From: a virus
Lineage: Duplodnaviria; Caudoviricetes
Virus record (IMG/VR): IMGVR_UViG_3300017913_000199
Span: 1 to 52,732 of that record
DNA length: 52,732 nt
Direction: 5' to 3' (one strand)
The translations under genes were made by a program, and so were the position numbers. Of this stretch, positions 1-52,732 are shown in pieces. The notes under the pieces are model-generated. The model was not told the DNA's origin. It worked only from the letters and a program-made list of their open reading frames with translations, and did not search any database. How positions within the stretch are numbered: position 1 is the first letter of the stretch; the number at the start of each line of letters is the position of its first letter.

Positions 1-141
1 CCTAGTCCGCCATAGCCATCGCTTTGTGCTTCACTACCATCGGAAGCACCACCCCCTGTGTGACCGCCGCCACCGCCACTATTTGTTCCGGGATCTCTTC
101 CAGTTTCCATGCCTAGCCCAGTAGCAGATCCCATCCCCGGC
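1..141. repeat. 141-bp terminal overlap identical to 52592-52732 (assembly circularisation)
   Basis: Exact match of both contig ends; it falls inside a continuous ORF. Confidence 0.95.
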
Positions 142-5595: not shown

Positions 5596-7266
5596 TTAGT
5601 ATCCGAATACTTCGTCTTGTGCTTTGTACACGTGGTTTTTGATTGCACCTAGTTGTTGATGTATTGCAGAGTATCCACTCATCCGTGTCATCACCATGTA
5701 TCGTAGTGCGTCGTATGCGTGGTCTTCAGCCTTCGTGTCTACGTCTTCGCTATTCGTTTTTGATAGAGGTATTCCCGCAAGCTGCTTAATGGTATGCTGG
5801 CAGGTAGAAAATACTCGTAAGCGTGGTTCTTCTGTGTACGGATCATTGCCTAATCTTCTGTGGATTTCCATCTTACCTTGAATACGGTTACGATCAGATG
5901 GCGTCCAGCGTACACCGCAACGCATCATTGTTTCTGCTATAGATGGGCCGAAACCTGTTTTGTTCCAACAAGACGAATCCAAAACAGTGTAGTGGGGTAA
6001 AGGATCTAATTCCTCTACTTCTAGTATTCTATCAGCTAAATCTTCTGCTGTCAAGTGTTTTGCGTATAACTCACGATAGACCCAAATATTATTATCCCAA
6101 TCAATAGCACCCCAAAGAACTGCAGACGGGGACGAATAGCCATAGTCCGCTGCTCTAATGCGAGGCCAATTGGTAGGTAATTCGAAAGGTTCGACAACGT
6201 GTCTACTCCGTGAAAACTCTGGGAAGGCCGCTCCCTCTGCCACATCCCAATCCCCCTCTAGAAGTCTCTTCCGCTCAACTTCTGGGAGCGAACGCAACAT
6301 GGCTTCGTATTGTCCGTCAGCCATGAGGTGGGGATTATCAGTCAACCGTGCAGGAACAAACTTGCGGTAGAACAACGGCTGACCTGCCTTCTCGTGACCT
6401 TTAGGCCACACAAAGGGCTTCATTGTATCTATGTCGTACGCAGCAAACGCTTCGTTTTCTGTGCGTGAGTCGATGTACATTTTCTTAACCCACCAGCCAC
6501 CGACGCCGCCGGGGTTGGCTGTACAACGCATGTATAGATTGTTTTGAAGTTCAGGATCTGTGGAACGTAGTCTAGAACGTAAATAGTCCCAGACGTAAGG
6601 GGTTGGGTATTGGGTTATTTCGTCTATGCCTATCCAGTTAAACGCCTGACCCTGAAAACGGGTTACGTCTTTATCCCTGTCTAGGTAGGTAAACCAAATC
6701 GTGGCACCTGATGGAAAGACCCACGTTGATTTTGATTCGCGGAACTTTGCTCCGGGGAACGCCTTTGTATATAGTTGGCGTGATTTGTCTATCAGTTCGG
6801 TTAGTTCGTCGAGGGTGCGTCTTAGAAGAAGACCCCGGTGATTGGGATTATGGCAATAGCGTAGGGGATCAGCAAGTAGAGCAAATGACTTACCACCGCC
6901 AGCCGCTCCCCCATATAGGACATCTCGCTCACCCGCTGAAAGAAACTCTTCTTGAGGACCGGGGTTAGCTTGGAAAACAACTTCAGAATCACCAACAAGG
7001 TCGGAAACGGATGGGGGTAGAACGGCGAGATCTCCCTCATCGATGACGTTTGTTCCTTTTCCAGTGACTCCCTTTTCAACTCTTCCAATTGTTTCTTCCA
7101 GCTTTCGGGCATAACTTCTTTGTGCTTCCGCTTTCTTTGTAGCTTGTGTAGCTTTCTTCCTTGCGGCCCGTAGACGCTTCTGTGCCCCACGACGGGCACG
7201 TTCAGCGGTGGACAATTGATAGGTTCGTTTAGTCTTTTTCGGCTGAACCGTTTGCTTTTCTGCCAC
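5596..7266 (-). CDS. terL: Terminase large subunit
   Basis: Walker A GGAAGGGKS, Walker B IGIDE, TANPGG, nuclease AADYG and DHAYDALRY; probable GTG start at 7266. Confidence 0.95.
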   Translation of the reverse strand: MAEKQTVQPKKTKRTYQLSTAERARRGAQKRLRAARKKATQATKKAEAQRSYARKLEETIGRVEKGVTGKGTNVIDEGDLAVLPPSVSDLVGDSEVVFQANPGPQEEFLSAGERDVLYGGAAGGGKSFALLADPLRYCHNPNHRGLLLRRTLDELTELIDKSRQLYTKAFPGAKFRESKSTWVFPSGATIWFTYLDRDKDVTRFQGQAFNWIGIDEITQYPTPYVWDYLRSRLRSTDPELQNNLYMRCTANPGGVGGWWVKKMYIDSRTENEAFAAYDIDTMKPFVWPKGHEKAGQPLFYRKFVPARLTDNPHLMADGQYEAMLRSLPEVERKRLLEGDWDVAEGAAFPEFSRSRHVVEPFELPTNWPRIRAADYGYSSPSAVLWGAIDWDNNIWVYRELYAKHLTAEDLADRILEVEELDPLPHYTVLDSSCWNKTGFGPSIAETMMRCGVRWTPSDRNRIQGKMEIHRRLGNDPYTEEPRLRVFSTCQHTIKQLAGIPLSKTNSEDVDTKAEDHAYDALRYMVMTRMSGYSAIHQQLGAIKNHVYKAQDEVFGY

Positions 7267-7546
7267 GATGCTTCCTTGCTTGCCCAATCAAAACACTAAG
7301 TTCTTTTGAAAATTCTGTTCCGGTCATCCCGTCTGGTACACGGATAGCATCTCCACGACGCATAGCTTCTTTGATTGCTTCCTCTGCTGATAGTTTAATC
7401 AGCCCTTCTTTATCACGACGAATAGTGGGAGCAACGTACTCTATGTCATCTTGTTCAAAACTAATGGTGCGAACAGTTTCGTTTGCATATGTAGCTGGGG
7501 TAGATGGGTCCATCGCTCGTGCCAACCATGCTGGACGTTCAGCCAT
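7229..7546 (-). CDS. Hypothetical protein with C-terminal RGRKANGSAEK motif
   Basis: ORF with RBS; motif shared with neighbours. Confidence 0.75.
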   Translation of the reverse strand: MAERPAWLARAMDPSTPATYANETVRTISFEQDDIEYVAPTIRRDKEGLIKLSAEEAIKEAMRRGDAIRVPDGMTGTEFSKELSVLIGQARKHRGRKANGSAEKD

Positions 7547-8048: not shown

Positions 8049-8513
8049 CTATACCTTATAGTTTGCTCTGCGTCCGCGACAGGCTTTACCACCGTACTTC
8101 ATATCTGTACGTTCTTTTGGTGCGGGTCTACGTGCAGGGTTTCTTTTGGGAACTTTCATTCCCAACTCTGTGCTATAACCTTTTGTTGCGCCGGGGTGTG
8201 TTAAATCTGTCTTAAATTTATTTGCTTCAGCCCTACGCTTTTTCATAGTTGTTTCTTTTTTGTCTTTTATATTAAGCATAGGCTGCTTAACTTTTGCGTA
8301 GGTTTCTGAATCAAACTCACGTAGACGAACATCTTTGTTGATAAGTCTGTTCCGTGACCTGTCTTTTGGTACAGCAGCTATGTTTTGGTTCTCTACAATC
8401 TTATCATAAACCTTTTTTTGTTTATCAGTAAGATTCTTCACTTCAGCAGCAGTTATCTTACGAAAGCCTTCATTAAACTTTGCGCGAGCCTTATCTTCAT
8501 CATCAAGAGCCAT
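8049..8513 (-). CDS. Basic hypothetical protein with C-terminal YGGKACRGRRAN motif
   Basis: ORF with GAGG RBS. Confidence 0.75.
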   Translation of the reverse strand: MALDDEDKARAKFNEGFRKITAAEVKNLTDKQKKVYDKIVENQNIAAVPKDRSRNRLINKDVRLREFDSETYAKVKQPMLNIKDKKETTMKKRRAEANKFKTDLTHPGATKGYSTELGMKVPKRNPARRPAPKERTDMKYGGKACRGRRANYKV

Positions 8514-8907
8514 CGATTACGACCTCTTTCTTCGGTGGCAACAGGACTACGCCGTGCACTGCCGTTACATTGTGATTGATTTGTTCCTGCTTTGCTACGC
8601 CGACGCGATTCAAAAGCGACTCAGCGGCTTTGAGGCGCAGGTCATCACCTCTTTCCGGGGCGGGGTTATCTATCGTCTGAATTACACGGTTAGCTGCCTT
8701 CATTGCGTTGGTAGCTAGGATGGTTTTGGTGCGTTCGATGATCTCATCTGCAAGTGTGGACTTGAGCCACGCTGCAGATCCACGAGAATACCCTGCATCG
8801 ATGGCAGCAGCAGTTACCTGACCGCCATTTTCAAATAGAAGTTCCAAGAACTGTTCCTGTTGCGGGGTCAATTCCTTCTTTTTGTGTGTCTGGGGGAGTA
8901 GATTCAT
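8503..8907 (-). CDS. terS: Terminase small subunit
   Basis: LTPQQEQFL...AAAIDAGYS HTH-like N-terminus, LKAAESLLNRVG, upstream of terL. Confidence 0.8.
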   Translation of the reverse strand: MNLLPQTHKKKELTPQQEQFLELLFENGGQVTAAAIDAGYSRGSAAWLKSTLADEIIERTKTILATNAMKAANRVIQTIDNPAPERGDDLRLKAAESLLNRVGVAKQEQINHNVTAVHGVVLLPPKKEVVIDGS

Positions 8908-9103
8908 CGTTGTTTTCCAAAACCGACTTACAGCGACTACGTATTACAACTTCGAATACCTGTCGCTCGTAAATGTACGTTGCCATTTCATCGTTTCGCA
9001 ACATACACTCTTTTTCTGTGGGGTATGGACCTTCTGTGTCGCGTATTTCACGGCACAAATCTGGTCCAGTAGCTAGGCAGACAAGAATCCAAGATTCAAA
9101 CAT
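8831..9103 (-). CDS. Small Cys-containing hypothetical protein
   Basis: First ORF after the late promoter; AGGA RBS. Confidence 0.65.
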   Translation of the reverse strand: MFESWILVCLATGPDLCREIRDTEGPYPTEKECMLRNDEMATYIYERQVFEVVIRSRCKSVLENNDESTPPDTQKEGIDPATGTVLGTSI

Positions 9104-9221
9104 GTCTGATTTCCTTTTTTATGTTGTGGGAAGGTTAGTTTGTAGCCTCAAACCCCTAATGTCAAGCATATTGTGTTGGTTTTTGCCGGGATGTGCTAAG
9201 TAAACCTCTGCCCACATCACA

Positions 9222-9250
9222 AGTATACCGTCTATAACTATGTAAGTCAA
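9222..9250 (-). promoter_or_regulatory. Sigma70-like promoter for the packaging/structural arm
   Basis: TTGACT-17bp-TATACT on the minus strand. Confidence 0.8.
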
Positions 9251-9311
9251 CAAGAATATACCCATAGGTTATCTTTTTTACTAAAAAAAATAAATTTGCC
9301 TACGAATATTC

Positions 9312-9340
9312 TTGACAAATCGGAAAATTACCTATACAAT
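9312..9340 (+). promoter_or_regulatory. Sigma70-like promoter driving a putative small RNA
   Basis: TTGACA-17bp-TACAAT with an A/T-rich upstream tract. Confidence 0.8.
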
Positions 9341-9346
9341 GGGGTT

Positions 9347-9438
9347 AAGACCCCCCGGGAAATAACCCATTACCCCCCGGCTACCCCTACACGTCGGTTT
9401 CATACCCCTTCGGGATACCCCGTTGGGGTCTTTTTTTG
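9347..9438 (+). ncRNA. Putative ~90-nt small RNA
   Basis: Begins at the predicted +1; AAGACCCC pairs with GGGGTCTT; ends in hairpin ACCCC-GTT-GGGGT plus a T-run; no credible ORF. Confidence 0.55.
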
Positions 9439-9491
9439 CCTAAACTCCGCCGGGGTAACCCGCCGGGGCACCCCTACACGTCGGTTTCATA
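9383..9491 (+). repeat. 22-bp perfect direct repeat ACCCCTACACGTCGGTTTCATA (9383-9404 and 9470-9491)
   Basis: Direct reading of the sequence. Confidence 0.95.
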
Positions 9492-9826
9492 GCCATATCG
9501 GTAACCCCTCAAATATAAAATTGCTGTCGGGATTGCATACAGATACCGGTACCCCCCGGGTGGCCCTTGTGTACCCCATAGGGGCGTCCCCCATTGCCAA
9601 TGCCGTGGATCACCATCGACAGACAAACCCACAAAACCGCCGCGCATATTTTCCCCGCCTATATCGCGCCGTTTGTTTCTTTTTTTTAGTCCCCGTTGAC
9701 ACCTTGCCCATATAGAAAACCTGCACGGCAAGCCGTAGAGGTCAACATAACACACAAAACAAACACCCCCGACGCTGGATTTGTCCCGCAATATCAAACC
9801 CAAACCGGATATTTCAGGCGATAGTC

Positions 9827-9861
9827 AAAAAAGAACCCCGCCGTACTAGCCAAGCGGGGTT
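9827..9861 (-). terminator. Intrinsic terminator ending the early operon
   Basis: AACCCCGC/GCGGGGTT stem with adjacent A-run on the plus strand. Confidence 0.75.
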
Positions 9862-9888
9862 AAGTTGGGAGGAAATGCGTCGGTTTCG

Positions 9889-10053
9889 TTAGCCGGTTTC
9901 GATTTCTTCAATCGCATCTATTAGAAGATCGCCGATTGTGTCTTCGTTATCTGTCCCGCCATGAACCCGTTTTAAGTGCAACAGGTTGTGTGCTTTCAGC
10001 GTTTTGTAAACATCGACGAGATTGAAATAAGCATTATTACTAGGATCAGTCAT
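9889..10053 (-). CDS. Hypothetical early protein
   Basis: MTDPSNN start with GAGGA RBS. Confidence 0.65.
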   Translation of the reverse strand: MTDPSNNAYFNLVDVYKTLKAHNLLHLKRVHGGTDNEDTIGDLLIDAIEEIETG

Positions 10054-10072
10054 TTTTTCCTCTTCTCTTGAG

Positions 10073-10183
10073 TTACTGCCTGAAGTCTTCTTTTGCATGT
10101 TCCCAGAGCGTTGCAAATAGGCACCAACAAGCAATCAAAACCCATGCCAGCAACACTAGCATGATCACGTTAGCTATTGTCAT
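10073..10183 (-). CDS. 36-aa single-TM membrane peptide
   Basis: Manual translation MTIANVIMLVLLAWVLIACWCLFATLWEHAKEDFRQ, GAGG RBS. Confidence 0.55.
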   Translation of the reverse strand: MTIANVIMLVLLAWVLIACWCLFATLWEHAKEDFRQ

Positions 10184-12096: not shown

Positions 12097-12231
12097 CCCC
12101 GATGGATCAGCCCCCAACTCAACTGATCCGATGATGCCACCGCCGCCGGAACCAACAACCGATGCGGCATGGCACCCCAAAAAACAAAGATAGGCATTGA
12201 CAATATTTTAAGCATAGCCTGACAAAATTTG

Positions 12232-12915
12232 TTAGTGGGTTTGAAATAAAACCTGCATATCTTTTGCCGCCCAGCATATCGTACAGGTTGAACACGATTC
12301 GGTTTGCCCCGTTTGTTCTGGACAGATTACAGATTTGTTTTTTGCTGGCTTGATTAAGTCGGCACTGTTCGCGCTAAACTTATAATCGGGTGCGTTGCTA
12401 AAACGAACAGCGAATCGGTCACCATAGCCAACCTGTACAGCGCGAATAGCCAAGCCAATATCACTTGTCGGTTTATATCCGGTAAATCCCCAGATAGCTA
12501 AATTGTCAAATTTACGCAACAGTTCGCCCCATAGCAAAACATATTCTTTAGAATAGAAATCGCCCAGAACATGCAGCCGGATAATCACCCCGCGATAGGT
12601 CGCGCAAAGTTCCGCAACTTCTTTTTTCAATGCGGTTTCAAGTTCAAGGCCGTGCTGGATACGATGCCCAAACATCATATTGTTACCATAGCAATCATCC
12701 CAGTGATAGCAATAGCGGGGACAGGTTGCCCGTTCTTCTAATGTGAGGGTATAAATCACATATCCTTTAAACTTGCCCTTTTTGATTACGGGCAATTTAT
12801 CTTTGCTTAGCTTTTTATTTTTAGACTGTTTCAAAACCGATTTGGATTCGGCAACTGTGCGGCGGCTCTTTGGGTACATAGTCGCGGCGGGTTTGTTTAT
12901 ATCTGCTTTTTTCAT
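12232..12915 (-). CDS. GP88-like Cys-rich phage protein
   Basis: TCPxxCxxxxxCY, IRLHVLGDF, C-terminal CP...CxxCxxC. Confidence 0.65.
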   Translation of the reverse strand: MKKADINKPAATMYPKSRRTVAESKSVLKQSKNKKLSKDKLPVIKKGKFKGYVIYTLTLEERATCPRYCYHWDDCYGNNMMFGHRIQHGLELETALKKEVAELCATYRGVIIRLHVLGDFYSKEYVLLWGELLRKFDNLAIWGFTGYKPTSDIGLAIRAVQVGYGDRFAVRFSNAPDYKFSANSADLIKPAKNKSVICPEQTGQTESCSTCTICWAAKDMQVLFQTH

Positions 12916-13172
12916 TAGCTATACACCCCGCTCAGCATAACAACACCGTCACCACACTGGCACGAAACAGGCGCGTCGGTTTCAATCCAAACACGCGCAC
13001 CACATGATAATGGTTTATTAGGTGAATAAACAACAGTAGACGCACCGCCAATATCTACACGGTCGGCATAAATATTGCGCTTGCTAGTTTTAACTGTAAT
13101 TGCGGGGTCGGTTGTCCCGTTCTTTTTATTTGCACGAATAACGTGCTGATTAATGTGAATTCGTTTTTTCAT
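12915..13172 (-). CDS. Conserved marine phage hypothetical protein
   Basis: IHINQHVIR...PLSCGARVWIET pattern. Confidence 0.8.
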   Translation of the reverse strand: MKKRIHINQHVIRANKKNGTTDPAITVKTSKRNIYADRVDIGGASTVVYSPNKPLSCGARVWIETDAPVSCQCGDGVVMLSGVYS

Positions 13173-13306
13173 CGGTTGGTTTCCTTATTTTTTACAATTT
13201 CAAAATCAAGGCTTCCATCTTCTGCCAGTTCTGCGATATAGTCAAGCACATCGGACAGAGTTACTATTTCCCTTTCGAATTCTAATCTTATTACAACTTC
13301 AATCAT
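13169..13306 (-). CDS. 45-aa hypothetical protein
   Basis: Manual translation MIEVVIRLEFERE...; AAAGGA RBS; ATGA coupling to the next gene. Confidence 0.6.
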   Translation of the reverse strand: MIEVVIRLEFEREIVTLSDVLDYIAELAEDGSLDFEIVKNKETNR

Positions 13307-13341
13307 CGGTCGGTTCCTTTTCGTTTGTTGGTTTGCAAACG

Positions 13342-13536
13342 TTAAGGATAAAATCCGCGATGGTCAAGCGGTTTTATTTTGGCACCCTGTTTTTTTAGAT
13401 AACATTTAGGACAGTAAAATAAACTATTTACATAAACCATTGAGGGTTCACCGCAATCATAACACGGATAATCGCGGCTAAGTGTTGTCTTGTTATTTTT
13501 ATTTACAGTATTTTGGCTGACAAAATTCATTGACAA
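13342..13536 (-). CDS. Small zinc-ribbon protein
   Basis: CxxC...CxxC; start uncertain. Confidence 0.55.
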   Translation of the reverse strand: MSMNFVSQNTVNKNNKTTLSRDYPCYDCGEPSMVYVNSLFYCPKCYLKKQGAKIKPLDHRGFYP

Positions 13537-13545
13537 AATCCCCCG

Positions 13546-13746
13546 TTAAAATTTAGGTAAATAAAGTCTGCCATCTAATAATGCGGCTGACAATATTTTA
13601 AGCTGACAATTTTCTACAGTGACATCCCTGCCGTTCCACTCACCGTCGCTGACAATATTACGCAATCTTTTGCGTTCTAGGTTGACATTAATTAAGCGTG
13701 GATCGCTTGCCATGTCAGGGTACATGGGGTCTATGTACATGCTCAT
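13546..13746 (-). CDS. Hypothetical protein
   Basis: ATGA-coupled ORF. Confidence 0.6.
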   Translation of the reverse strand: MSMYIDPMYPDMASDPRLINVNLERKRLRNIVSDGEWNGRDVTVENCQLKILSAALLDGRLYLPKF

Positions 13747-13946
13747 CGTTTGTCTTCCCAGAAGTTATCCCAAGTTTCCCGCATCAATTCGCCAAGTTCG
13801 TTGTCAGTGAAATGCGCCATCAAGTCACGGTGTGGTTCCATCTGTTGCATAAACTCACCGACAAACTCACAGCCACCGATGATTGATCCGGCAATGTCAA
13901 ACCATTTGTCTTCGTTATCCATTGCCAATGCTTTCATCTTACCCAT
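13743..13946 (-). CDS. Hypothetical protein
   Basis: GAGG RBS, MGKMKALAMD start. Confidence 0.7.
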   Translation of the reverse strand: MGKMKALAMDNEDKWFDIAGSIIGGCEFVGEFMQQMEPHRDLMAHFTDNELGELMRETWDNFWEDKR

Positions 13947-13948
13947 CG

Positions 13949-14140
13949 TTACACCTCGCCTATGTCGTGTATGTCATAATCAAACGTATCAATGTATTCT
14001 GAAACAATCAACCCATTTATCAACGGGTCTAACTTGAATGCTTCGATAGCCAGTTCCTTTGCTTCATCTTCGCTATCCGCCCCAATAGGTACACGGGCTG
14101 AAACCGACGCAACAACATCAACTACAAATTTTCTTTTCAT
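13949..14140 (-). CDS. Hypothetical protein
   Basis: AAGGA RBS. Confidence 0.65.
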   Translation of the reverse strand: MKRKFVVDVVASVSARVPIGADSEDEAKELAIEAFKLDPLINGLIVSEYIDTFDYDIHDIGEV

Positions 14141-14288
14141 CGTTCGCTTCCTTCATCATCAGTTCAGCAATTCTATTAGAGACAGGACGATTGCCTGTCA
14201 ACTTGATTCGTCCCATGCGGTCGTACACAGGTTCAATCTCTAGGATTTGTAAGTCCCGCTTCAGTTCCTTGAATGTCGGTACGTTCAT
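14118..14288 (-). CDS. 56-aa hypothetical protein
   Basis: Manual translation MNVPTFKELKRDLQ...; leader AAAGGAAACCGACGATG. Confidence 0.55.
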   Translation of the reverse strand: MNVPTFKELKRDLQILEIEPVYDRMGRIKLTGNRPVSNRIAELMMKEANDEKKICS

Positions 14289-14508
14289 CGTCGGTTTCCT
14301 TTATTATCTGTGTTGACATTTTGTCCCATTCGCCACGCCGCATACGAAACTTCTTGTTTTGTACTGGTGTGCAAATGCGAACCCACTTGTAACCGACAAC
14401 AGCCCACACGAGCCGTGTGCCGGATACTGGTAATCTCATGTCGAAGAAATCCACGCGGTACAGCTTGGCGTTGTCCCACGCGGCTTCTTTGGGTCTAGCT
14501 ACGTTCAT
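14233..14508 (-). CDS. Hypothetical protein
   Basis: ORF in tightly packed early operon. Confidence 0.65.
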   Translation of the reverse strand: MNVARPKEAAWDNAKLYRVDFFDMRLPVSGTRLVWAVVGYKWVRICTPVQNKKFRMRRGEWDKMSTQIIKETDDERTDIQGTEAGLTNPRD

Positions 14509-14776
14509 CTAAATTAAACTCAAACTTTAGTTTGTCCCGTGCATCTGACAACTCTTGCAATGCATATGCTGACACACATTTGATACCACCCATGTCAGGA
14601 TATAATGCCAAGTCCAAGACATCATCAAGCCACTTCTGTACCTCAATTACAGCGCACCGTTGTTCCATAGACAGTTTACCAATACGGTTTCTGCGCTGTA
14701 TGCGTTCCTTTTCCCGTTGGTTTTCCCAATGGGCTATGCTTTCATCGATTGCCATGTTCTCTAGTTTTTTAGCCAT
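14495..14776 (-). CDS. Hypothetical protein
   Basis: MAKKLE start after GGGAG RBS. Confidence 0.65.
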   Translation of the reverse strand: MAKKLENMAIDESIAHWENQREKERIQRRNRIGKLSMEQRCAVIEVQKWLDDVLDLALYPDMGGIKCVSAYALQELSDARDKLKFEFNLDERS

Positions 14777-14984
14777 CGTAGTCATCTCCCTTGTTACGTT
14801 CCTGTAGTTCATCTACATCCACACCGTCACAGATATATGAATAGTCATAGTTGGGTACGTTGAACAGCTTTACTGTGCCATCCTCATTGCGAATGTAGTC
14901 ATCCAGTTCGTAGTTAAATACAGCGACAGGCATATCCCATACGATTACGCTATGATTTATCTGAATCATAGTATTCATCATCAA
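14769..14984 (-). CDS. Hypothetical acidic protein
   Basis: GGGAG RBS. Confidence 0.65.
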   Translation of the reverse strand: MMMNTMIQINHSVIVWDMPVAVFNYELDDYIRNEDGTVKLFNVPNYDYSYICDGVDVDELQERNKGDDYDG

Positions 14985-14990
14985 TCTCCC

Positions 14991-15227
14991 TTACAGTAGT
15001 TGGTCAGTACCATCAACGCCCATCAGGTTCATCACATCCCTAGTCAGGCTGTCAATCAATTCATAAACATCATTGACAGGCCAATATTCTAGCGGTTCCC
15101 ATGCGTTGTCCTCAAAAAACTTATCTAACTTTTCTTCAGGCCAGTCTGCCCAATCATCAGGCAAATGTTGGCATAGGAAGTGTCCAGACATTCTAGCAAA
15201 TATTTGTTGTTCAGTCATCTTAGCCAT
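14991..15227 (-). CDS. Hypothetical acidic protein
   Basis: AAAGGA RBS. Confidence 0.7.
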   Translation of the reverse strand: MAKMTEQQIFARMSGHFLCQHLPDDWADWPEEKLDKFFEDNAWEPLEYWPVNDVYELIDSLTRDVMNLMGVDGTDQLL

Positions 15228-15256
15228 CGTTCGTTCCTTTCATTGATTAACGATAC

Positions 15257-15289
15257 ATAACCAATATCGGTTATCAAACAGGCTGTCAA
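15257..15289 (-). promoter_or_regulatory. Putative early promoter with overlapping imperfect palindrome ATAACCAATATCGGTTAT
   Basis: TTGACA-17bp-TATTGG on the minus strand; palindrome 15257-15274 covers the -10. Confidence 0.5.
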
Positions 15290-15290
15290 C

Positions 15291-15330
15291 AAAAAAAGAA
15301 ACGGGGCTGGAAAATTAATTCCAACCCCGC
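15291..15330 (-). terminator. Intrinsic terminator
   Basis: CGGGGCTGGAA/TTCCAACCCCG stem plus A-run. Confidence 0.7.
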
Positions 15331-15355
15331 TCCCCAACCAACGAACGAAACAACC

Positions 15356-15610
15356 TTACGCAACCTCGTAAGGTATCCCTAGTTTTAGCACCACCTGTTT
15401 GTGTTCGTCAAGCCATTTTTTACATTCCCACCGACTTTTTCCGACAAACAATACAACGTGACGCAGATAGTCTACACAATCTTTTGACTTCACCAATTCA
15501 CGATCTGTCTCACCAATACGCACGGATGATACAGGAACACACAAAGACCACATGTAGTCACTGCGTTCGACAATTTCTATTTCAAGTTTTTTAGTCTTCA
15601 AGGATTTCAT
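15356..15610 (-). CDS. Hypothetical protein
   Basis: ORF coupled to upstream gene. Confidence 0.7.
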   Translation of the reverse strand: MKSLKTKKLEIEIVERSDYMWSLCVPVSSVRIGETDRELVKSKDCVDYLRHVVLFVGKSRWECKKWLDEHKQVVLKLGIPYEVA

Positions 15611-15797
15611 CTGATTCTTCTTTCAAAGCGTCTAAGTAAATATCTATGGCTTCCCTGATTAGGTCAGCTACTGCCACTTGTTCTAGGCTTTTCTTCTGCA
15701 TCTCTTTAGCAAAAACCGACAATTCATCAAACTGTTTTTGTTTCATCAACAGAACGTATGTCTTAGTCGGCTCATCTATCTTTGGTGGTCGAGCCAT
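15591..15797 (-). CDS. Ribbon-helix-helix (CopG/Arc-like) regulator
   Basis: Beta strand KTYVLLM, helix, then VADLIREAIDIYL. Confidence 0.7.
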   Translation of the reverse strand: MARPPKIDEPTKTYVLLMKQKQFDELSVFAKEMQKKSLEQVAVADLIREAIDIYLDALKEESDEILED

Positions 15798-15921
15798 CCT
15801 TCATTTCCTTTTTAGATAGTTTATCCAATTTACTTTTCTTCTTATTAGGTATAACCTGTTTATTATATTTTCTATCCCCTAATAGTTTAGCTATAGGGTT
15901 TATTTTATTATATGTTTTCAT
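15772..15921 (-). CDS. 49-aa basic protein, weakly ArfA-like
   Basis: Manual translation MKTYNKINPIAKLLGDRKYNKQVIPNKKKSK... Confidence 0.55.
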   Translation of the reverse strand: MKTYNKINPIAKLLGDRKYNKQVIPNKKKSKLDKLSKKEMKDGSTTKDR

Positions 15922-15998
15922 AGTAGGTTATCCCCATAGGGTATGTTAAATAAATAGGTAGCACGGCCTGTCAAGTCGTGTCAACCAAAAAAATGCAG

Positions 15999-16027
15999 TT
16001 GACAAGGTTTGATGTATCGATTATTCC
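15999..16027 (+). promoter_or_regulatory. Promoter of the replication operon (possibly leaderless mRNA)
   Basis: TTGACA-17bp-TATTCC; ATG at 16035 lies at the predicted +1. Confidence 0.6.
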
Positions 16028-16034
16028 TTGTGAC

Positions 16035-16838
16035 ATGAAATCACCGAACTGGCTAAAAGGTTATGTTGAGTCGCTGGACATCCAGCCGTTGGGACGCTAT
16101 CGGTCTGACTGCCCTGTGTGTGGCAAGTCGAATACGTTTAGCGTAACCGACGATGGATTGCAACGCATGTGGTTTTGTTTTCATGCAGACTGCAATGTGT
16201 CTGGTCGTACCGGTATCACACTATCACGACAACATGCAAATGGTGTATTCAAGCGGTCACAGGCAAATGTGCCTGTTCCCCGTACTGGTAACACTTACGA
16301 ACTGCCGCCGACATTTGTTAGTCTTTCTCGTAACTTAGACGCTGAACTTTATGTAAAACGTGTACACGCATACGATGCATACCTTGCTGGTCGTGCTGAC
16401 ATTCGGTATGATTTTAAACGGAACAGGGTTGCATACATAGTCAAGGCTGACAATAAAATCGTAGATGCAGCAGGACGTTCCTTAGATGGACGTAATCCGA
16501 AGTGGTACAGATATAACAATGCGTCTGTTCCTTTTGCTTGCGGTGACAATAATACAGCTATAATTGTTGAAGATTGTGCAAGTGCATGTGCAGTCAGCAA
16601 CTTAGTAGCTGGTGTGGCTTTGTTGGGAACCAACTTGTCAGATGAACACGTTGACTTTTTATCCAAGTACAAAAGGGTTTTTGTCGCGCTTGACAAAGAT
16701 GCAACCGACAAAGCACTTGACATGGTGAAGATTCTATGTAGAAAAATACCGACAAAGCTAATGGTATTAAGTCAAGATTTGAAAAACCTAAACAACGAGG
16801 AACGAGATGAGTTCATACGATCCCATATCAATAGATAA
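16035..16838 (+). CDS. DNA primase
   Basis: Zn finger CPVC...CFHADC, TOPRIM IVED and ALDKDA. Confidence 0.9.
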   Translation: MKSPNWLKGYVESLDIQPLGRYRSDCPVCGKSNTFSVTDDGLQRMWFCFHADCNVSGRTGITLSRQHANGVFKRSQANVPVPRTGNTYELPPTFVSLSRNLDAELYVKRVHAYDAYLAGRADIRYDFKRNRVAYIVKADNKIVDAAGRSLDGRNPKWYRYNNASVPFACGDNNTAIIVEDCASACAVSNLVAGVALLGTNLSDEHVDFLSKYKRVFVALDKDATDKALDMVKILCRKIPTKLMVLSQDLKNLNNEERDEFIRSHINR

Positions 16839-18036
16839 ACAGATACTTGGTTTCTGTCTCAACGCTAACTTCTTTGGTAGTGTCAAGAACATTATTGACA
16901 GGACAATGTTTGAAAAAGAGATGCGTGACATATTTGACACGCTGACATATTCGCACACCAAATACGGAAAAGATTTAACTATCAATGAGTTAGCTAGTCT
17001 ATTCAATGATCGCAACCCTGCTATGCCAGATGCGACTCGCAACAAAGTACAAGAAACTATTGCAACCCTAGATGTTGGCAACGCTGACAATGCTGACTTG
17101 CACCTAGACTTGGTACACAATTTCTGGTTGCGTGATCGTGCGAGGCAGATAGGGGAAAAGGCAATTGAGATATTTACAGGCGACAGTGAAGAGTTCGGTG
17201 AGTTGCGCCGCCTCATTGAAACTGTAGAGGATGGTCGCATCAGTGACAAAACTACCTACACTAAAGTTGAAGATGATTTGGATACCTTGCTAAACGATGA
17301 GGCTGGTGATCCAGACTTCCCTTTCGGCTATGACCTGATCGCAGAGAATGTGACAGGTCTAGACAGAGGTAACTTAGGTATTTTGTTTGCACGTCCTGAA
17401 GTTGGTAAGACTACATTCTGTTGCTTCCTTGCCGCATCGTACATCAGGCAAGGGTTCAAGGTTGTATATTGGGCGAACGAGGAACCAGCCCCAAAGATTA
17501 AGTTGCGTATCATCCAATCATACTTTGGTTTGACACGGGAAGAGATGGTCAGAGATAGAGTCAGCCTGTCGGTTAAATACGCCGATGAGATTGCCCCGTT
17601 GCTTACCATCATGGATTCAGTTGGTACGTCGGTTGAAGAGGTCGATGAATATGCCAAGCTGAACAAGCCTGACGTTATGTTTTGTGACCAGCTAGATAAG
17701 TTTCGTATCGCAGGTGAATTCAATCGTGGGGATGAGCGGCTCAAGGAAACCTATGTGTTTGCACGAGAAATAGCTAAAAGAAACAAGACCTTAGTGTGGG
17801 CGGTTAGTCAGGCAAACTATGAGGCACACGACAGACAGTGGATTGACTATTCTATGTTGGACAACTCACGCACGGGCAAGGCTGGTGAAGCTGACATCAT
17901 TATTGGTATTGGCAAGACAGGGTCTAGTGAGGTAGAAAATACCGTACGTCACATTTGCATATCTAAGAATAAGCTGAACGGGTGGCACGGTATGATCAAT
18001 GGTCAGATAGATATAGAACGCGGAATATATTACTGA
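16807..18036 (+). CDS. DnaB/T7 gp4-like replicative helicase
   Basis: ARPEVGKT, FCDQL, AVSQ, EADIIIG, KNK motifs. Confidence 0.93.
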   Translation: MSSYDPISIDKQILGFCLNANFFGSVKNIIDRTMFEKEMRDIFDTLTYSHTKYGKDLTINELASLFNDRNPAMPDATRNKVQETIATLDVGNADNADLHLDLVHNFWLRDRARQIGEKAIEIFTGDSEEFGELRRLIETVEDGRISDKTTYTKVEDDLDTLLNDEAGDPDFPFGYDLIAENVTGLDRGNLGILFARPEVGKTTFCCFLAASYIRQGFKVVYWANEEPAPKIKLRIIQSYFGLTREEMVRDRVSLSVKYADEIAPLLTIMDSVGTSVEEVDEYAKLNKPDVMFCDQLDKFRIAGEFNRGDERLKETYVFAREIAKRNKTLVWAVSQANYEAHDRQWIDYSMLDNSRTGKAGEADIIIGIGKTGSSEVENTVRHICISKNKLNGWHGMINGQIDIERGIYY

Positions 18037-18898: not shown

Positions 18899-20399
18899 GA
18901 TGACAGACGTTCTGGCTCGTATGGAGCAGAACGGATTGAAGATTAACTTGGATACCCTAGAAGATATCCGACAGGAATACCAACAGGAAATGGATGAACT
19001 TGAGGTTCGCCTAGAACGCCTTGCACGGGATGCTATGGGCGACACCCCTGTCAACCTGTCTAGCCCCGATGACAGAAGCGTGTTGCTCTATTCACGGCGT
19101 GTTAAAGATAAGAAGACATGGTCGCGTGTGTTCAACTTGGGACACGAGATGCGCGGCAACACAATGAAGCCTAAGATGCGTACACGGATGAAGCGCGGCG
19201 AGTTCAAGTCTGCCGTAAAGAACATGACTGAGGTTGTGTACAAGACACGGGGTCAGCAGTGTGATGAGTGTAAGGGTGAGGGTCGGTTTCATCCACGCAA
19301 GAAGGATGGCACGATAGGAAAGGCTGTTCGTGTCTGTCGGCGGTGTGACGGGGCTGGTGTTCTTTACATACCTACACGGGAAGTAGCCGGATTCAAGCTG
19401 ATACCCCGTGACCCAATGGATACGGCATCGGCAGGGTTCAAGACCGACAAGGCCACATTGGAAAACCGACAAACCGACTTGTCTGGTGATGCCCACGAGT
19501 TCGTTGTAGCCTATGTGCGCTACAGTGCGTTGCGTACTTACCTGTCAACTTTTGTAGAAGGAATGAAAAATAATGTTGACGAAAATAGTTTCATCCATCC
19601 AGAATTCATGCAGTGTATTACGGCGACAGGTCGTCTTTCGTCTAGAAATCCTAACTTTCAGAATATGCCGCGTGGAAGTACCTTCGCTATACGGAAGGTT
19701 GTCGAGAGCCGCTTCACGGGCGGTTTTATACTTGAAGGGGATTACTCGCAACTAGAGTTCAGGGTGGCTGGTTTCCTGTCTAAAGACGGACAAGCCTACA
19801 TCGATGTGAAGGATGGTACAGATGTTCACAGCTATACTGCAAGTGTTATCGGATGCACACGTCAAGAAGCAAAGGCGCACACGTTCAAACCTTTGTATGG
19901 CGGTGTCAGTGGTACAGAAAACCAGCAACGCTATTATCGTGCGTTTAAAGAAAAGTATGAGGGCGTTACTGAGTGGCACAAAGAACTGCAGAAAGAAGCA
20001 GTGCGAACCAAAGTAATTACCCTGCCCAGCGGCAGACAGTATGCTTTCCCATCTGCACGTTGGACTGAGTGGGGTACAGCTACAAACCGTACGGCTATCT
20101 GTAACTATCCAGTACAAGGGTTTGCAACAGCCGACTTGTTGCCAGCCGCATTGGTTCGCCTAGATAAGATGATGCGATCAAGAAAATTAAATTCTGTAAT
20201 CTGCAACACCGTGCACGATTCGATTGTATTGGATGTACACCCAGATGAAAAAGAGGCTTGCATCAACCTATTAGCCTATGCTATGCAGAGTTTACCTGAA
20301 GAAACAGTTAATCGGTATGGTGTCGAGTATGACATGCCTGTCGGAATAGAATTAAAAATAGGCAAAAATTGGCTTGACTCAGAAGAAATAGAACTGTAA
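18858..20399 (+). CDS. polA: Family A DNA polymerase domain with DnaJ-type zinc-finger insertion
   Basis: CDECKGEG and CRRCDGAG; TGRLSS, PNFQN, DYSQLEFR, KAHTFKPLYG, NYPVQG, VHDS; GAGGA RBS before ATG 18858. Confidence 0.93.
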   Translation: MQRTLLPTLRLSLEMTDVLARMEQNGLKINLDTLEDIRQEYQQEMDELEVRLERLARDAMGDTPVNLSSPDDRSVLLYSRRVKDKKTWSRVFNLGHEMRGNTMKPKMRTRMKRGEFKSAVKNMTEVVYKTRGQQCDECKGEGRFHPRKKDGTIGKAVRVCRRCDGAGVLYIPTREVAGFKLIPRDPMDTASAGFKTDKATLENRQTDLSGDAHEFVVAYVRYSALRTYLSTFVEGMKNNVDENSFIHPEFMQCITATGRLSSRNPNFQNMPRGSTFAIRKVVESRFTGGFILEGDYSQLEFRVAGFLSKDGQAYIDVKDGTDVHSYTASVIGCTRQEAKAHTFKPLYGGVSGTENQQRYYRAFKEKYEGVTEWHKELQKEAVRTKVITLPSGRQYAFPSARWTEWGTATNRTAICNYPVQGFATADLLPAALVRLDKMMRSRKLNSVICNTVHDSIVLDVHPDEKEACINLLAYAMQSLPEETVNRYGVEYDMPVGIELKIGKNWLDSEEIEL

Positions 20400-51555: not shown

Positions 51556-52732
51556 TTATTTAAGAGCACGGAGCACTTTAGTGGCGTAGTTTGGACCTTC
51601 GCCATAAGATGCTAAAGCTTTTTGTAAGCTGTCGTGATCTTGTAACTTTTGCATTAATGTTATGTTTGCAATTGTATCGTAGTGTTTTTTGTGTAGATTT
51701 GGATCTATTTGTCCTGTACCATACCTACCATACAACTTTTTAATATCATCTGGGGTGGATACCTTTTTACCATCCCTATACATAGCTCTATATTTTTCTA
51801 TGTTTATTTTATCGTCGCCCTGTTGGATAAGAAGATCCATATACTGTTTTTCTTCATCACCTAACATATCGTAAAATTTGCTACGGGTTTTAATGTCTTT
51901 TAAAGTGCTTGCAGTTATTTGCATAGGACCAAACGCCGATGAGGCTGCTTTCTTACGTTTGATGCCTGTAAATATATAGGGGTTGTCTTCAAACCCTTTT
52001 ATTTCTACAGTTTGTATTGCAGATTTAATATCACCAAACCTACGACCAAAATACAAATCATCATCTATTGACGGGGGTGGTTGATCAAGAAACCCTGAAC
52101 CTTGCGAAGTGGGTGTGCCGGATATTTTGGGACTGTCTGGGCCAATTACCTGAGAAACAAACCCTCTATCTATCTCGGCTATACCCCCTTCGTTCAAACC
52201 AACGCCGCCGCCGTACTTAGCTTGTCTGCGCTGTACTTCAGGTTTACCTTTGTCGTTTAACTTATCTAGGAATCCCTTGCCCTTCATCTTTTCAATTTGG
52301 GCAACTACTTCAGGCTCTATGTGGCGTTCACCATCAGAAAGTGCAACATCTACCATAGGTGCATCTTTGGGTTTCTTTACTTTCTTTTCAGCTTTTGCTA
52401 CCAAGCTGTCAAGCATACCCTCGTATTTTTCGTTGGTAGGTTGGTTTACGATAAACGAACCTTCCTTCACGCTGGTAAATCTATTGTCTGCAATAGACTC
52501 TTGTTCGTTTACAGAGTCGGGGTCTTTGTTTACGAAGCCGTTGGTTACGTTGCCGCCGGGAGCATACTCTACACGTCCGCCTGAAGCATGGCCTAGTCCG
52601 CCATAGCCATCGCTTTGTGCTTCACTACCATCGGAAGCACCACCCCCTGTGTGACCGCCGCCACCGCCACTATTTGTTCCGGGATCTCTTCCAGTTTCCA
52701 TGCCTAGCCCAGTAGCAGATCCCATCCCCGGC
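51556..52732 (-). CDS. C-terminal part of the ~740-aa virion protein; lytic transglycosylase/lysozyme-like domain
   Basis: AIQTVE, SSAFGPMQIT, ALASYGEG.NY..KV motifs. Confidence 0.75.
   Translation of the reverse strand, partial: PGMGSATGLGMETGRDPGTNSGGGGGHTGGGASDGSEAQSDGYGGLGHASGGRVEYAPGGNVTNGFVNKDPDSVNEQESIADNRFTSVKEGSFIVNQPTNEKYEGMLDSLVAKAEKKVKKPKDAPMVDVALSDGERHIEPEVVAQIEKMKGKGFLDKLNDKGKPEVQRRQAKYGGGVGLNEGGIAEIDRGFVSQVIGPDSPKISGTPTSQGSGFLDQPPPSIDDDLYFGRRFGDIKSAIQTVEIKGFEDNPYIFTGIKRKKAASSAFGPMQITASTLKDIKTRSKFYDMLGDEEKQYMDLLIQQGDDKINIEKYRAMYRDGKKVSTPDDIKKLYGRYGTGQIDPNLHKKHYDTIANITLMQKLQDHDSLQKALASYGEGPNYATKVLRALK
52592..52732. repeat. Copy of bases 1-141
   Basis: Exact match. Confidence 0.95.

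What the first reader, a model, noticed from the sequence alone, without database searches (positions are those of the whole stretch)
9312..9438. Promoter- and terminator-bounded small RNA displaying the over-represented motif
Seen: a near-consensus promoter fires into a gene-free region. The ~90-nt product can close a 5'/3' helix (AAGACCCC-C-CGGG with CCCG-UU-GGGGUCUU), ends in a U-run and carries CGUCGGUUUC centrally. That 10-mer is complementary to GAAACCGACG in the leader of the early gene at 14288, and partly to the leaders at 10870, 13172 and 13306. Inference: either an antisense RNA that shuts off early-gene translation, a decoy for the motif-binding factor, or a guide or primer RNA addressing the ~31 genomic sites. 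Together with the octamer and the recombinase-like gene, this is the best candidate here for an undescribed system; the link between them is speculative.
Basis: partly seen in the sequence, partly recalled or inferred. Interest (0 to 1): 0.72.

Follow-up and report, generated by a model that had tools for sequence, protein, structure and literature searches.

The report
Phage control-region RNA carrying address word
An uncultured marine phage has a conserved strong promoter that makes a short terminated transcript carrying one copy of an 8-letter word that is also scattered about 30 times over its genome, and related phages change the word in this control region and across their genomes together, which points to an undescribed lineage-specific self-addressing system whose reader is still unknown.

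Summary
At 9312-9340 lies an 11-of-12 sigma-70-type promoter, and at 9417-9436 an intrinsic terminator. The ~91-nt unit between them carries CGTCGGTTTC at +46. Its 8-mer core GTCGGTTT occurs 32 times in 52.7 kb, against about 1.6 expected.

The window is a complete HMO-2011-type marine podovirus.

In relatives the core of the repeat is hypervariable. In 7 of 14 word classes it is also a strongly enriched 8-mer elsewhere in the same contig.

The antisense-to-early-leaders reading is not supported:
- The word lies on both strands and in all frames.
- Translation start regions are not enriched for pairing with the RNA core.
- There is no covariation support for a conserved RNA fold.
- The most conserved copy lies downstream of the terminator, and only 20 of 37 lineages have the word inside a terminated transcript.

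Best reading (0.45): a DNA-level, lineage-specific word with an iteron-like array in a promoter-driven control region. An RNA specifier remains open (0.25). No reader protein was found, and expression is unproven.

Earlier notes of this scan report private octamers in two other phages. Neither note mentions a matching control region.

The parts
9222..9250 (-). Divergent promoter of the leftward late (packaging/structural) operon, TTGACT-17-TATACT
   Evidence: 10 of 12 matches. Conserved in the alignment of 29 homologous regions. The first late ORF starts at 9103, and terS and terL lie downstream.
9312..9340 (+). Promoter of the short transcript, TTGACA-17-TACAAT
   Evidence: 11 of 12 matches. 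TTGACA-N17-TAnnnT is present in 37 of 37 representative relatives.
9341..9354 (.). Inverted repeat spanning the predicted start site (GGGGT-TAAG-ACCCC)
   Evidence: The two arms change together between lineages: GGGAC/GTCC, GGGC/GCCC, GGGTC/GACCC, GGCT/AGCC, GGGTA/TACCC (read by eye). The 5' arm lies upstream of the predicted start, so an operator-like DNA element is more likely than an RNA hairpin (inference).
9347..9437 (+). Predicted ~91-nt transcript, C-rich and weakly structured
   Evidence: The start is inferred from the -10 position. The end is the terminator T-run. Fold z = -1.11. No Rfam family at gathering score, and only sub-threshold hits. Expression is not shown.
9347..9364 (+). 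Conserved initial transcribed box AAGACC..CGGGAAATA
   Evidence: Columns 5, 6, 9, 11-14 and 16-18 are invariant in 40 sequences. Variants of the box are seen by eye in most of the 37 sequences listed.
9384..9405 (+). Copy 1 of the 22-nt repeat unit; core word GTCGGTTT at 9393-9400
   Evidence: Direct repeat family D1/D5. The 21-mer is exact in 21 viral contigs, 11 of them with two copies. The first copy sits at +46 to +49 in 17 of 37 lineages from 4 word classes.
9417..9436 (+). Intrinsic terminator hairpin plus T-run
   Evidence: In the 40-sequence alignment 93.8% of the cells of this hairpin are paired, but the pairs hardly vary. By strict criteria a terminator lies before the last word copy in 22 of 37 lineages.
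9471..9492 (+). Copy 2 of the repeat unit (core 9480-9487), downstream of the terminator
   Evidence: This is the copy beside the conserved block. A last copy next to that block is seen in the 37 sequences printed.
9493..9540 (.). Highly conserved block CCATATCGGTAAC...AAAATTGCTGTCGGGATTGCATA
   Evidence: The pattern with 3 N is exact in 45 viral contigs.
9632..9643 (.). Degenerate inverted copy of the word (AAAACCGCCGC)
   Evidence: 85% complementary to 9877-9889 (pair I12). Several relatives of the same word class read AAACCGAC at this place (alignment, read by eye).
9826..9864 (-). Intrinsic terminator ending the leftward early operon
   Evidence: Hairpin CCCCGC...GCGGGG followed on the minus strand by a T-run. 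It is conserved in relatives, with arm changes kept in pair (last block, read by eye). The scan did not list it. Together with 9417-9436 it encloses 9440-9826 between convergent terminators.
9879..9886 (+). Third local copy of the word, just after the stop of ORF 9889-10134
   Evidence: It is converted in place to GTTCGTTT in L007/L102.
14289..14298 (-). GAAACCGACG directly upstream of the ATG at 14288 (56-aa ORF)
   Evidence: This is the only exact 10-mer in a start region with a Shine-Dalgarno-like AAGGA. The ORF is 96% conserved in G005.

Best explanation
The finding is the promoter-proximal part of a conserved ~0.6-kb control region (9.25-9.87 kb). The region lies between the late-operon promoter and the end of the early operon of an HMO-2011-type podovirus.

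Shown:
- An invariant strong sigma-70-type promoter fires rightward across a conserved box, a C-rich tract and the first copy of a 22-bp repeat. In this phage the transcript stops at an intrinsic terminator after ~91 nt.
- The repeat forms an iteron-like array of 1-4 co-oriented copies. Its 8-bp core is a lineage-specific word that is also scattered over the genome on both strands.

Inferred mechanism: the word is read as DNA by a lineage-specific factor that has not been identified. The array, together with the adjacent conserved block insulated between convergent terminators, is the place where that factor acts. It would be an origin-like or master regulatory site. The promoter would serve it by transcriptional activation, R-loop or primer formation, or insulation. 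On this reading the short RNA carries the word because it is transcribed from copy 1, not because it pairs with early mRNAs.
For: Word statistics:
- 32 copies against 1.6 expected.
- The flanks of dispersed sites carry at most 0.5 bit, so the word is a sharply bounded 8-mer.
- Sites lie in frames 0/1/2 = 6/13/10, and on sense/antisense = 15/14 of the 29 sites assigned to ORFs.

Co-variation:
- The genome-by-word matrix is diagonal: 32, 29, 17, 29 and 15 copies of the own word, against 0-11 of the other cores.
- With the control region masked, the own core is enriched in 8 of 18 contigs, that is 7 of 14 word classes.

Sites turn over between classes: 11 of 13 alignable G000 sites are not sites in G001. 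Some are converted in place.

Array architecture:
- 2-4 co-oriented copies.
- The copy next to the conserved block lies downstream of the terminator.
- 2 of 37 lineages have a terminator but no word inside the transcript, and 15 of 37 have no canonical terminator before the last copy.

No RNA-structure covariation was found. Convergent terminators flank 9440-9826.
Against: No reader was found.
- TerS is 89-97% identical among the loci of the GTNNGTTT-type word classes (CGG, TCG, TGG) and 72-81% in the more distant classes, so it does not track the word.
- The winged-helix part of the HTH_11 protein is identical in a GTTCGTTT contig and a GTCGGTTT contig.
- The primase zinc-binding region is the same in both classes but for one Ser/Thr change.
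- Helicase, PolA, exonuclease, endonuclease I, RNR and others differ only at background level.

Classical iterons are confined to the origin, and no initiator gene is evident.

The promoter (37 of 37) and the +46 to +49 position of the first copy across 4 word classes are conserved more strictly than a mere by-product transcript would need.

10 of 18 contigs show no enrichment outside the control region, including the 44.9-kb G003.

Neither origin function nor transcription has been observed.
Confidence: 0.45

Rival explanations
1. The short RNA is itself the specificity carrier. It would be a trans-acting RNA with a conserved 5' handle and terminator scaffold that displays a variable 8-nt seed at +46. 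The seed would direct a conserved phage or host protein, as guide or as decoy, to complementary words on either DNA strand or in transcripts. Specificity would then change by mutating the RNA, without any protein change.
For: - Invariant promoter in 37 of 37 lineages. The first copy sits at +46 to +49 in 17 of 37 lineages from 4 unrelated word classes.
- Conserved initial transcribed box.
- A sharply bounded 8-mer, like a seed.
- None of about 25 proteins compared tracks the word class.
- At least 14 different cores occur in a clade with TerL at least 81% identical.
Against: - The word is inside a terminated transcript in only 20 of 37 lineages, and the best conserved copy is outside it.
- No conserved fold.
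- Metatranscriptome contigs show no enrichment over 9347-9437, and one contig bridges the terminator (contigs only, weak evidence).
- No RNA-guided effector is recognisable in the scans made.
- As far as I recall, 8 nt is short for stable pairing to duplex DNA.
Confidence: 0.25
2. The word is read by a host enzyme, as a Chi-like sequence that tames a helicase-nuclease or another self-recognition signal. The co-oriented copies in the control region would guard a DNA end made there, such as a pac or cos cut next to terS.
For: - An 8-mer that is frame-independent, turns over, and is about 20-fold enriched resembles what I recall of Chi, the 8-letter word read by RecBCD (only the listing and abstract start of the preprint were seen).
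- No phage protein co-varies with the word.
- Related phages use related words of the type GTNNGTTT.
- Mosaic genomes carry sites of two classes.
- Near the control region the orientation is biased: 8 of 9 sites between 9.39 and 14.3 kb are on the + strand, and 8920 and 5064 are on the - strand.
Against: - The words differ between phages with 94% identical TerL, and the same promoter-relative position is kept while unrelated words replace each other.
- The orientation bias is not reproduced in G002 or G001.
- The copies sit in a conserved 22-bp unit.
- The host is unknown: no prophage or host link was found.
Confidence: 0.12
3. One reading: an antisense RNA that pairs with GAAACCGACG in early translation start regions and shuts off early translation.
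For: - Exact 10-nt complementarity directly before the ATG at 14288.
- Partial matches before 13306, 13172 and 10870.
- In the leftward early region (9.88-14.3 kb) 6 of 7 word copies have the complement on the mRNA strand.
Against: - Only 2 of 83 start regions hold the word. Duplex energies equal the background: mean -11.4 vs -11.0, and 32 of 83 (39%) at or below -12 against 37.6% of controls.
- About half of all sites are in the wrong orientation for mRNA pairing.
- In G002 the orientation pattern is weak.
- Lineages exist without the word in the transcript.
Confidence: 0.07
4. A stoperator-like system: a phage repressor binds the dispersed asymmetric sites and blocks transcription elongation genome-wide, and the copies behind the strong promoter act as its operator.
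For: - Dozens of dispersed asymmetric sites whose motif differs between related phages, as described for Cluster A mycobacteriophages (passages of PMC6550527 read; abstract of PMC9283540 seen).
- A copy lies 46 nt downstream of a strong promoter.
Against: - Stoperators predominantly have one orientation relative to transcription (PMC6550527). Here the split is 15 sense to 14 antisense.
- The only helix-turn-helix protein nearby does not track the word.
- No integrase or repressor was recognised in the scans made. This covered only part of the proteome.
Confidence: 0.08

Closest known systems
Stoperators and immunity repressor of Cluster A mycobacteriophages (L5, Bxb1)
   Same: Many copies of a short asymmetric site are dispersed over a phage genome, with a copy at a key promoter. 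The site motifs are similar but not identical between related phages (PMC6550527, passages read).
   Different: - Stoperators are 13 bp and are predominantly in one orientation relative to transcription. Here the word is an 8-mer on both strands, 15 sense to 14 antisense.
- No co-varying repressor was found.
- The phage looks lytic in the scans made.
Iteron arrays of plasmid and phage replication origins (recalled, no paper read)
   Same: Tandem co-oriented ~20-bp repeats with lineage-specific sequence, lying next to an A+T-rich conserved block and a promoter.
   Different: As I recall them, iterons are confined to origin and control loci and are paired with an adjacent initiator gene. Here the core is scattered about 29 times outside the array, and no initiator was identified.
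Chi and other over-represented bacterial octamers
   Same: An 8-letter word, like Chi, which RecBCD reads (length and reader seen only in the listing and abstract start of the preprint). As I recall, Chi is also strongly over-represented and independent of reading frame.
   Different: - The word changes between closely related phages.
- It is embedded in a conserved promoter-linked scaffold.
- There is no consistent strand polarity.
RNA-based immunity of P4 (CI RNA) and P1/P7 (c4 RNA) (recalled, no paper read)
   Same: A small phage RNA whose short lineage-specific sequence matches target sequences on the same genome.
   Different: As I recall, those RNAs have a few targets on one transcript in one orientation. 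Here there are ~30 sites on both strands, and the word is outside the terminated transcript in many lineages.
Lambda pR'-6S RNA-tR' late control module (recalled)
   Same: A strong promoter followed by a short terminated transcript at the head of the late region.
   Different: No co-oriented genes follow. The next ORF of 90 aa or more that lies on the + strand in a + strand gene block starts at 15978, and the DNA between is filled by genes on the minus strand.

Membership tests
Any Rfam RNA family | Match to a covariance model at the gathering score | tested here: not met
   0 matches in the whole window. In 9050-9950 there are only sub-threshold hits with E of 0.021 or more. None lies on the + strand over 9312-9438.
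Trans-acting base-pairing sRNA (own promoter, Rho-independent terminator, seed) | Own promoter and intrinsic terminator, conserved in relatives | tested here: met
   Promoter in 37 of 37 lineages. By strict criteria a terminator before the last word copy in 22 of 37.
Trans-acting base-pairing sRNA (own promoter, Rho-independent terminator, seed) | Seed complementary to mRNA targets more than chance | tested here: not met
   Start-region duplex energies equal the background. Sites are 15 sense to 14 antisense.
Trans-acting base-pairing sRNA (own promoter, Rho-independent terminator, seed) | A discrete transcript is made | tested here: inconclusive
   Only assembled contigs of 4 metatranscriptome runs could be laid. 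One run covers 9200-9539 at depth ~4, and the other three have no cover at 9371-9571.
Structured non-coding RNA | Conserved secondary structure with compensatory changes | tested here: not met
   Consensus fold -6.71 kcal/mol with a covariation term of -0.24. The proposed 5'/3' helix has 85.3% of cells paired against 84.9% in shuffles (171 of 500 reach it), and two of its pairs are unpaired in 29 and 26 of 40 sequences.
Stoperator-type repressor sites | Predominantly one orientation relative to transcription | tested here: not met
   15 sense to 14 antisense. The feature is taken from PMC6550527.
Stoperator-type repressor sites | Motif co-varies with a cognate repressor | tested here: not met
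   The winged-helix region of the HTH_11 protein is identical in L102 (GTTCGTTT) and L146 (GTCGGTTT). Other candidate proteins were not exhaustively tested.
Iteron-type origin | Tandem co-oriented repeats of about 20 bp | tested here: met
   The 22-nt unit occurs twice, 87 nt apart. Relatives have up to 4 copies.
Iteron-type origin | Cognate initiator gene, and repeats confined to the origin | tested here: not met
   No initiator family in the scans. 29 core copies lie outside the region.
Iteron-type origin | Replication starts there | not testable with these tools
   GC skew follows the direction of transcription and gives no origin signal.
Chi-like host-read octamer | The same word is enriched in the host genome and shared by phages of that host | not testable with these tools
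   The host is unknown. TerL finds no relative in 185,579 species genomes. The 4 pattern hits were unrelated DNA: no blastn match to the window for two of them, whose sequence I also read, and the other two lie in 8-Mb cyanobacterial chromosomes.
Chi-like host-read octamer | Consistent strand polarity | tested here: inconclusive
   There is a bias near the control region in G000 (8 of 9 on the + strand to the right). It is not reproduced in G001 and is weak in G002.

The most novel reading that the evidence does not exclude
A phage 'addressing' system in which a ~90-nt RNA, or the array it is transcribed from, carries an exchangeable 8-nt specifier. The specifier defines about 30 sites on both strands of the phage's own genome. 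Specifier and sites co-evolve into at least 7, and perhaps 14, private words within one clade.
Probability: 0.25. Interest if true: 0.92.

Novelty: new variant of a known kind. Interest (0 to 1): 0.8.

Why it matters
HMO-2011-type phages are described as a dominant, broadly distributed marine viral group (abstract of PMC9038755). A term search of that paper's text found 0 occurrences of 'promoter', 'intergenic' and 'non-coding', and its 5 uses of 'motif' concern protein or method motifs.

This clade shows a hypervariable specifier in a fixed scaffold, matched by dispersed genomic copies. That means some machinery tells own DNA from the DNA of close relatives. It would bear on replication or regulatory incompatibility between co-infecting phages, on how recombination mosaics are tolerated, and on how new specificities arise.

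The system is directly testable, because the predicted specifier is only 8 letters and natural swaps exist.

Tried and rejected
Expression. The look-up of sequencing runs listed 13 runs, 10 of them on record as RNA, all RNA rows with small shares. Four were laid. They are assembled contigs only. One marine run covers 9200-9371 and 9365-9539 at depth ~4, which is lower than most neighbouring coding bins (7-56). Three salt-marsh runs have no cover at 9371-9571. This shows neither presence nor absence of a 90-nt RNA.

Reader search by co-variation. These do not track the word class: TerS, the HTH_11 protein, primase, helicase, exonuclease, PolA, endonuclease I, RNR, GP88, the DUF932 protein and small ORFs. 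A divergent patch in the DnaJ-type zinc finger of PolA between the GTCGGTTT and GTTCGTTT classes is partly caused by a word copy lying in it (19282). It is therefore not evidence for a reader.

Primase recognition site. Considered and set aside, because the zinc-binding region does not differ between two word classes beyond one Ser/Thr change.

Templated copying of the 22-nt unit into the genome. Rejected, because the flanks of dispersed sites carry at most 0.5 bit.

Strand polarity around the control region. Suggestive in G000 but not reproduced.

Cultured relatives. There was no DNA match of 9100-9900 in 50,697 phage records. Roseobacter phage CRP-2 (first 50 kb) has no dominant word, so a same-host test was not possible.

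Host link. TerL found no relative in genome contigs. The 4 hits to the conserved-block pattern were unrelated DNA.

Structure and family searches of the DUF932 and GP88 proteins gave nothing useful.

Literature. Searches found no description of this element. Supplements were not seen. Most subscription journals are not in the library.

A first automatic tally of copies and terminators failed on its anchors. It was replaced.

Full report
CONTEXT

The window is a whole IMG/VR virus record of 52,732 bp, rated 100% complete. Its 141-bp terminal repeat lies inside a coding frame that runs off both ends. It is therefore an assembly overlap and says nothing about physical ends.

The closest cultured relatives by TerL are HMO-2011-type podoviruses of Roseobacter, Pelagibacter and Puniceispirillum, at 49-59% identity.

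Gene layout:
- A leftward late operon starts at 9103: a 90-aa ORF, terS at 8503-8907 and terL at 5596-7287. It continues round the record end through the minus-strand genes down to about 26.5 kb.
- A leftward operon of small early genes runs from about 15.2 kb to 9889. It includes an HTH_11 protein, a DUF932 protein and a GP88 protein.
- A rightward replication operon at 15.6-26.3 kb includes a Toprim primase, a DnaB-like helicase, an exonuclease, PolA with a DnaJ-type zinc finger, endonuclease I and RNR.

The finding lies in the 785-nt gene-free stretch 9104-9888 between the head of the late operon and the tail of the early one.

OBSERVATION

The promoter at 9312-9340 matches 11 of 12 consensus positions. 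The terminator is at 9417-9436. A second, divergent promoter (9250-9222, 10 of 12) faces the late operon.

It is part of the minimum-free-energy fold. The fold is no better than shuffled sequence: z = -1.11, and 22 of 200 shuffles fold at least as well.

The 10-mer occurs 11 times, against 0.07 in shuffles. The octamer GTCGGTTT occurs 32 times, 16 on each strand. The expectation is 1.6-2.4.

The exact complement sits directly before the ATG of a 56-aa ORF at 14288. Looser versions sit before the starts at 13306, 13172 and 10870.

The 10-mer is the core of a 22-nt unit that is repeated 87 nt further on, downstream of the terminator (9471-9492). A third copy of the 10-mer lies at 9878-9887.

RELATIVES

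TerL retrieves more than 600 viral contigs. The best 80, at 81-97% identity, were kept. The 21-mer of the unit is exact in 21 contigs, 11 of them with two copies. A profile of 9300-9545 finds the region in 99 loci, giving 74 distinct sequences.

Across 37 representative sequences:
- The promoter TTGACA-N17-TAnnnT is present in all 37.
- By eye, it is followed in most of them by an inverted repeat over the start site whose arms change together.
- Then comes a box of the type GCCGGG(A/G)(A/T)ATA, then a C-rich tract, then 1-4 co-oriented copies of a repeat.
- After the last copy comes a strongly conserved block, CATATCGATAAC...AAAATTG.TG.CG..ATTGCATA.

The early operon ends in a conserved minus-strand hairpin plus T-run at 9864-9826 (by eye). 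Thus 9440-9826 is shielded from transcription from both sides.

THE KEY RESULT

The core of the repeat differs between lineages, while its position and flanks stay. The same contigs are enriched for their own core.

In whole or long records:

| Record | Own word | Copies | Expected | Length |
|---|---|---|---|---|
| G000 | GTCGGTTT | 32 | 1.57 | 52.7 kb |
| G005 | GTCGGTTT | 29 | 1.34 | 42.0 kb |
| G001 | GTTCGTTT | 17 | 0.87 | 22.7 kb (does not include the control region) |
| G002 | GTACGTTT | 29 | 2.12 | 48.9 kb |
| G004 | GTTGCAAA | 15 | 2.69 | 56.8 kb |

Counts of the other classes' cores in these records are 0-11.

With the control region masked, the own core is enriched in 8 of 18 representative contigs, that is 7 of 14 word classes. 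Enrichment here means at least 4 copies and at least 4 times the expectation. The own core is the top-ranked 8-mer outside the region in 4 of them (G000, G002, L072, L050).

It is not enriched in 10 of 18. Most of these are short contigs that mainly cover late genes, where G000 is also poor in sites. G003 (44.9 kb; 3 copies against 0.9 expected) is a true exception.

The cultured relative CRP-2 shows no dominant word. The phenomenon therefore belongs to this uncultured clade.

NATURE OF THE WORD

- Of the 29 sites that my ORF model places in ORFs, 15 have the word on the sense strand and 14 on the antisense strand. Frames 0/1/2 are used 6/13/10 times.
- Flanks of dispersed sites carry at most 0.5 bit per position in four genomes. 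The word is a sharply bounded 8-mer.
- Two one-letter variants are also raised in G000: GTCGGTTG 14 and GTTGGTTT 11.
- Sites turn over. Of 13 G000 sites alignable in G001, 11 are not sites there, 1 is unchanged and 1 is converted to the other class's word. In L102 five sites are converted in place relative to G000 or L002.
- One relative (L008) is a mosaic that carries sites of two classes.
- Site density is highest from the control region through the early and replication genes, and low in the head and packaging module. That module instead holds several copies of the sister words.
- Strand polarity around the control region is suggestive in G000 but not reproduced in G001 and G002.

RNA OR DNA?

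Against an RNA-level role of the kind first proposed:
- The pairing energy of the RNA core with 83 start regions equals that with random coding windows.
- The consensus fold of 40 homologous transcripts is weak, -6.7 kcal/mol with a covariation term of -0.24.
- The proposed closing helix is no more paired than in column shuffles: 85.3 against 84.9%, reached by 171 of 500 shuffles.
- Its number of pairs with double changes is slightly raised: 4 against 1.8, reached by 8 of 500.
- The terminator hairpin is kept but hardly varies.
- By strict criteria the word is inside a terminated transcript in 20 of 37 lineages. In 2 of 37 a terminator precedes the only copy. In 15 of 37 there is no canonical terminator before the last copy.

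For a transcription-linked role:
- The promoter is the most conserved feature of the region.
- The first copy sits at +46 to +49 in 17 of 37 lineages belonging to four unrelated word classes.
- The first 18 transcribed bases are conserved.

Expression could not be judged.

READER

None was found.
- TerS is 89-97% identical among the loci of the GTNNGTTT-type word classes and 72-81% in the more distant classes.
- The winged-helix half of the HTH_11 protein is identical in contigs of two classes.
- The primase zinc-binding region is the same in both classes apart from one Ser/Thr change. Primase divergence (76-88% within one class) does not follow the word.
- The other replication proteins differ at background level.

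This absence fits an RNA reader, a host reader, or a protein not yet compared.

CONCLUSION

The unit is real as a conserved promoter-driven module.

I rank the explanations as follows:

| Explanation | Confidence |
|---|---|
| DNA-level private word with an iteron-like array in a promoter-served control region | 0.45 |
| The RNA as exchangeable specifier | 0.25 |
| A host-read Chi-like word | 0.12 |
| Stoperator-like repression | 0.08 |
| Antisense control of early start regions | 0.07 |

The steps from 'conserved array and dispersed word' to 'origin or regulatory hub' are inference.

The closest described system is the stoperator network of Cluster A mycobacteriophages (PMC6550527, passages read). 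It differs in orientation rule, site length and known reader.

My searches found no description of this element in HMO-2011-type phages. Supplements were not seen.

Earlier notes of this scan report private octamers in two other phages. Neither note mentions a matching control region.

Noticed in passing
window 9341-9354 and homologous places in L-loci: The inverted repeat over the predicted transcription start changes both arms together between lineages: GGGGT/ACCCC, GGGAC/GTCC, GGGC/GCCC, GGGTC/GACCC, GGCT/AGCC, GGGTA/TACCC. It looks like an operator for a dimeric, lineage-specific regulator of this promoter (by eye).
   Followed up: partly
window 9541-9600: Directly after the conserved block, relatives fall into two unrelated sequence forms. 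One has a C-run (as in the window, GGTACCCCCCGGG). The other has a G-run (GCCGGGGGGGTGGGG). Many blastn matches to the window region stop at about 9539-9549.
   Followed up: no
window 12219-17084; G004; L054; L011: A second word, TTGTCAGC/GCTGACAA and neighbours, is shared by many lineages whatever their private word: G000 10, G004 15, L054 12.
   Followed up: partly
window 19282-19289: One word copy lies inside the DnaJ-type zinc-finger insertion of PolA and encodes Gly-Arg-Phe there. The GTTCGTTT-class genome has other residues at this spot, so gaining a site can change protein sequence.
   Followed up: partly
window 15978-16838: The primase is much more divergent within one word class (76-88%) than the adjacent helicase (93-100%) and PolA (97-99%). 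It shows two allelic linker forms, which suggests mosaic exchange or fast evolution.
   Followed up: partly
window 14288, 13306, 13172, 10870 (minus strand): Four early genes share a start region of the type AAGGAA(A)CC(G/A)A..ATG. The complement of the word overlaps a Shine-Dalgarno-like AAGGA there.
   Followed up: partly
L008/L146 versus L102: L008 has a control region of the GTCGGTTT type, but its late genes are 95% identical to a GTTCGTTT-class contig and carry that class's sites. It is a natural recombinant with mismatched words.
   Followed up: partly
window 1-141 and 52592-52732: The 141-bp direct terminal repeat lies within an open reading frame that runs off both ends. It is an assembly overlap rather than a physical terminal repeat.
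   Followed up: yes
G003 (L144 record) 15127-15359: This relative has three copies of a longer unit (GTTACGACTCCGAT...) in its control region but almost no dispersed copies: 3 against 0.9 expected outside the region. It is an exception to the rule.
   Followed up: partly
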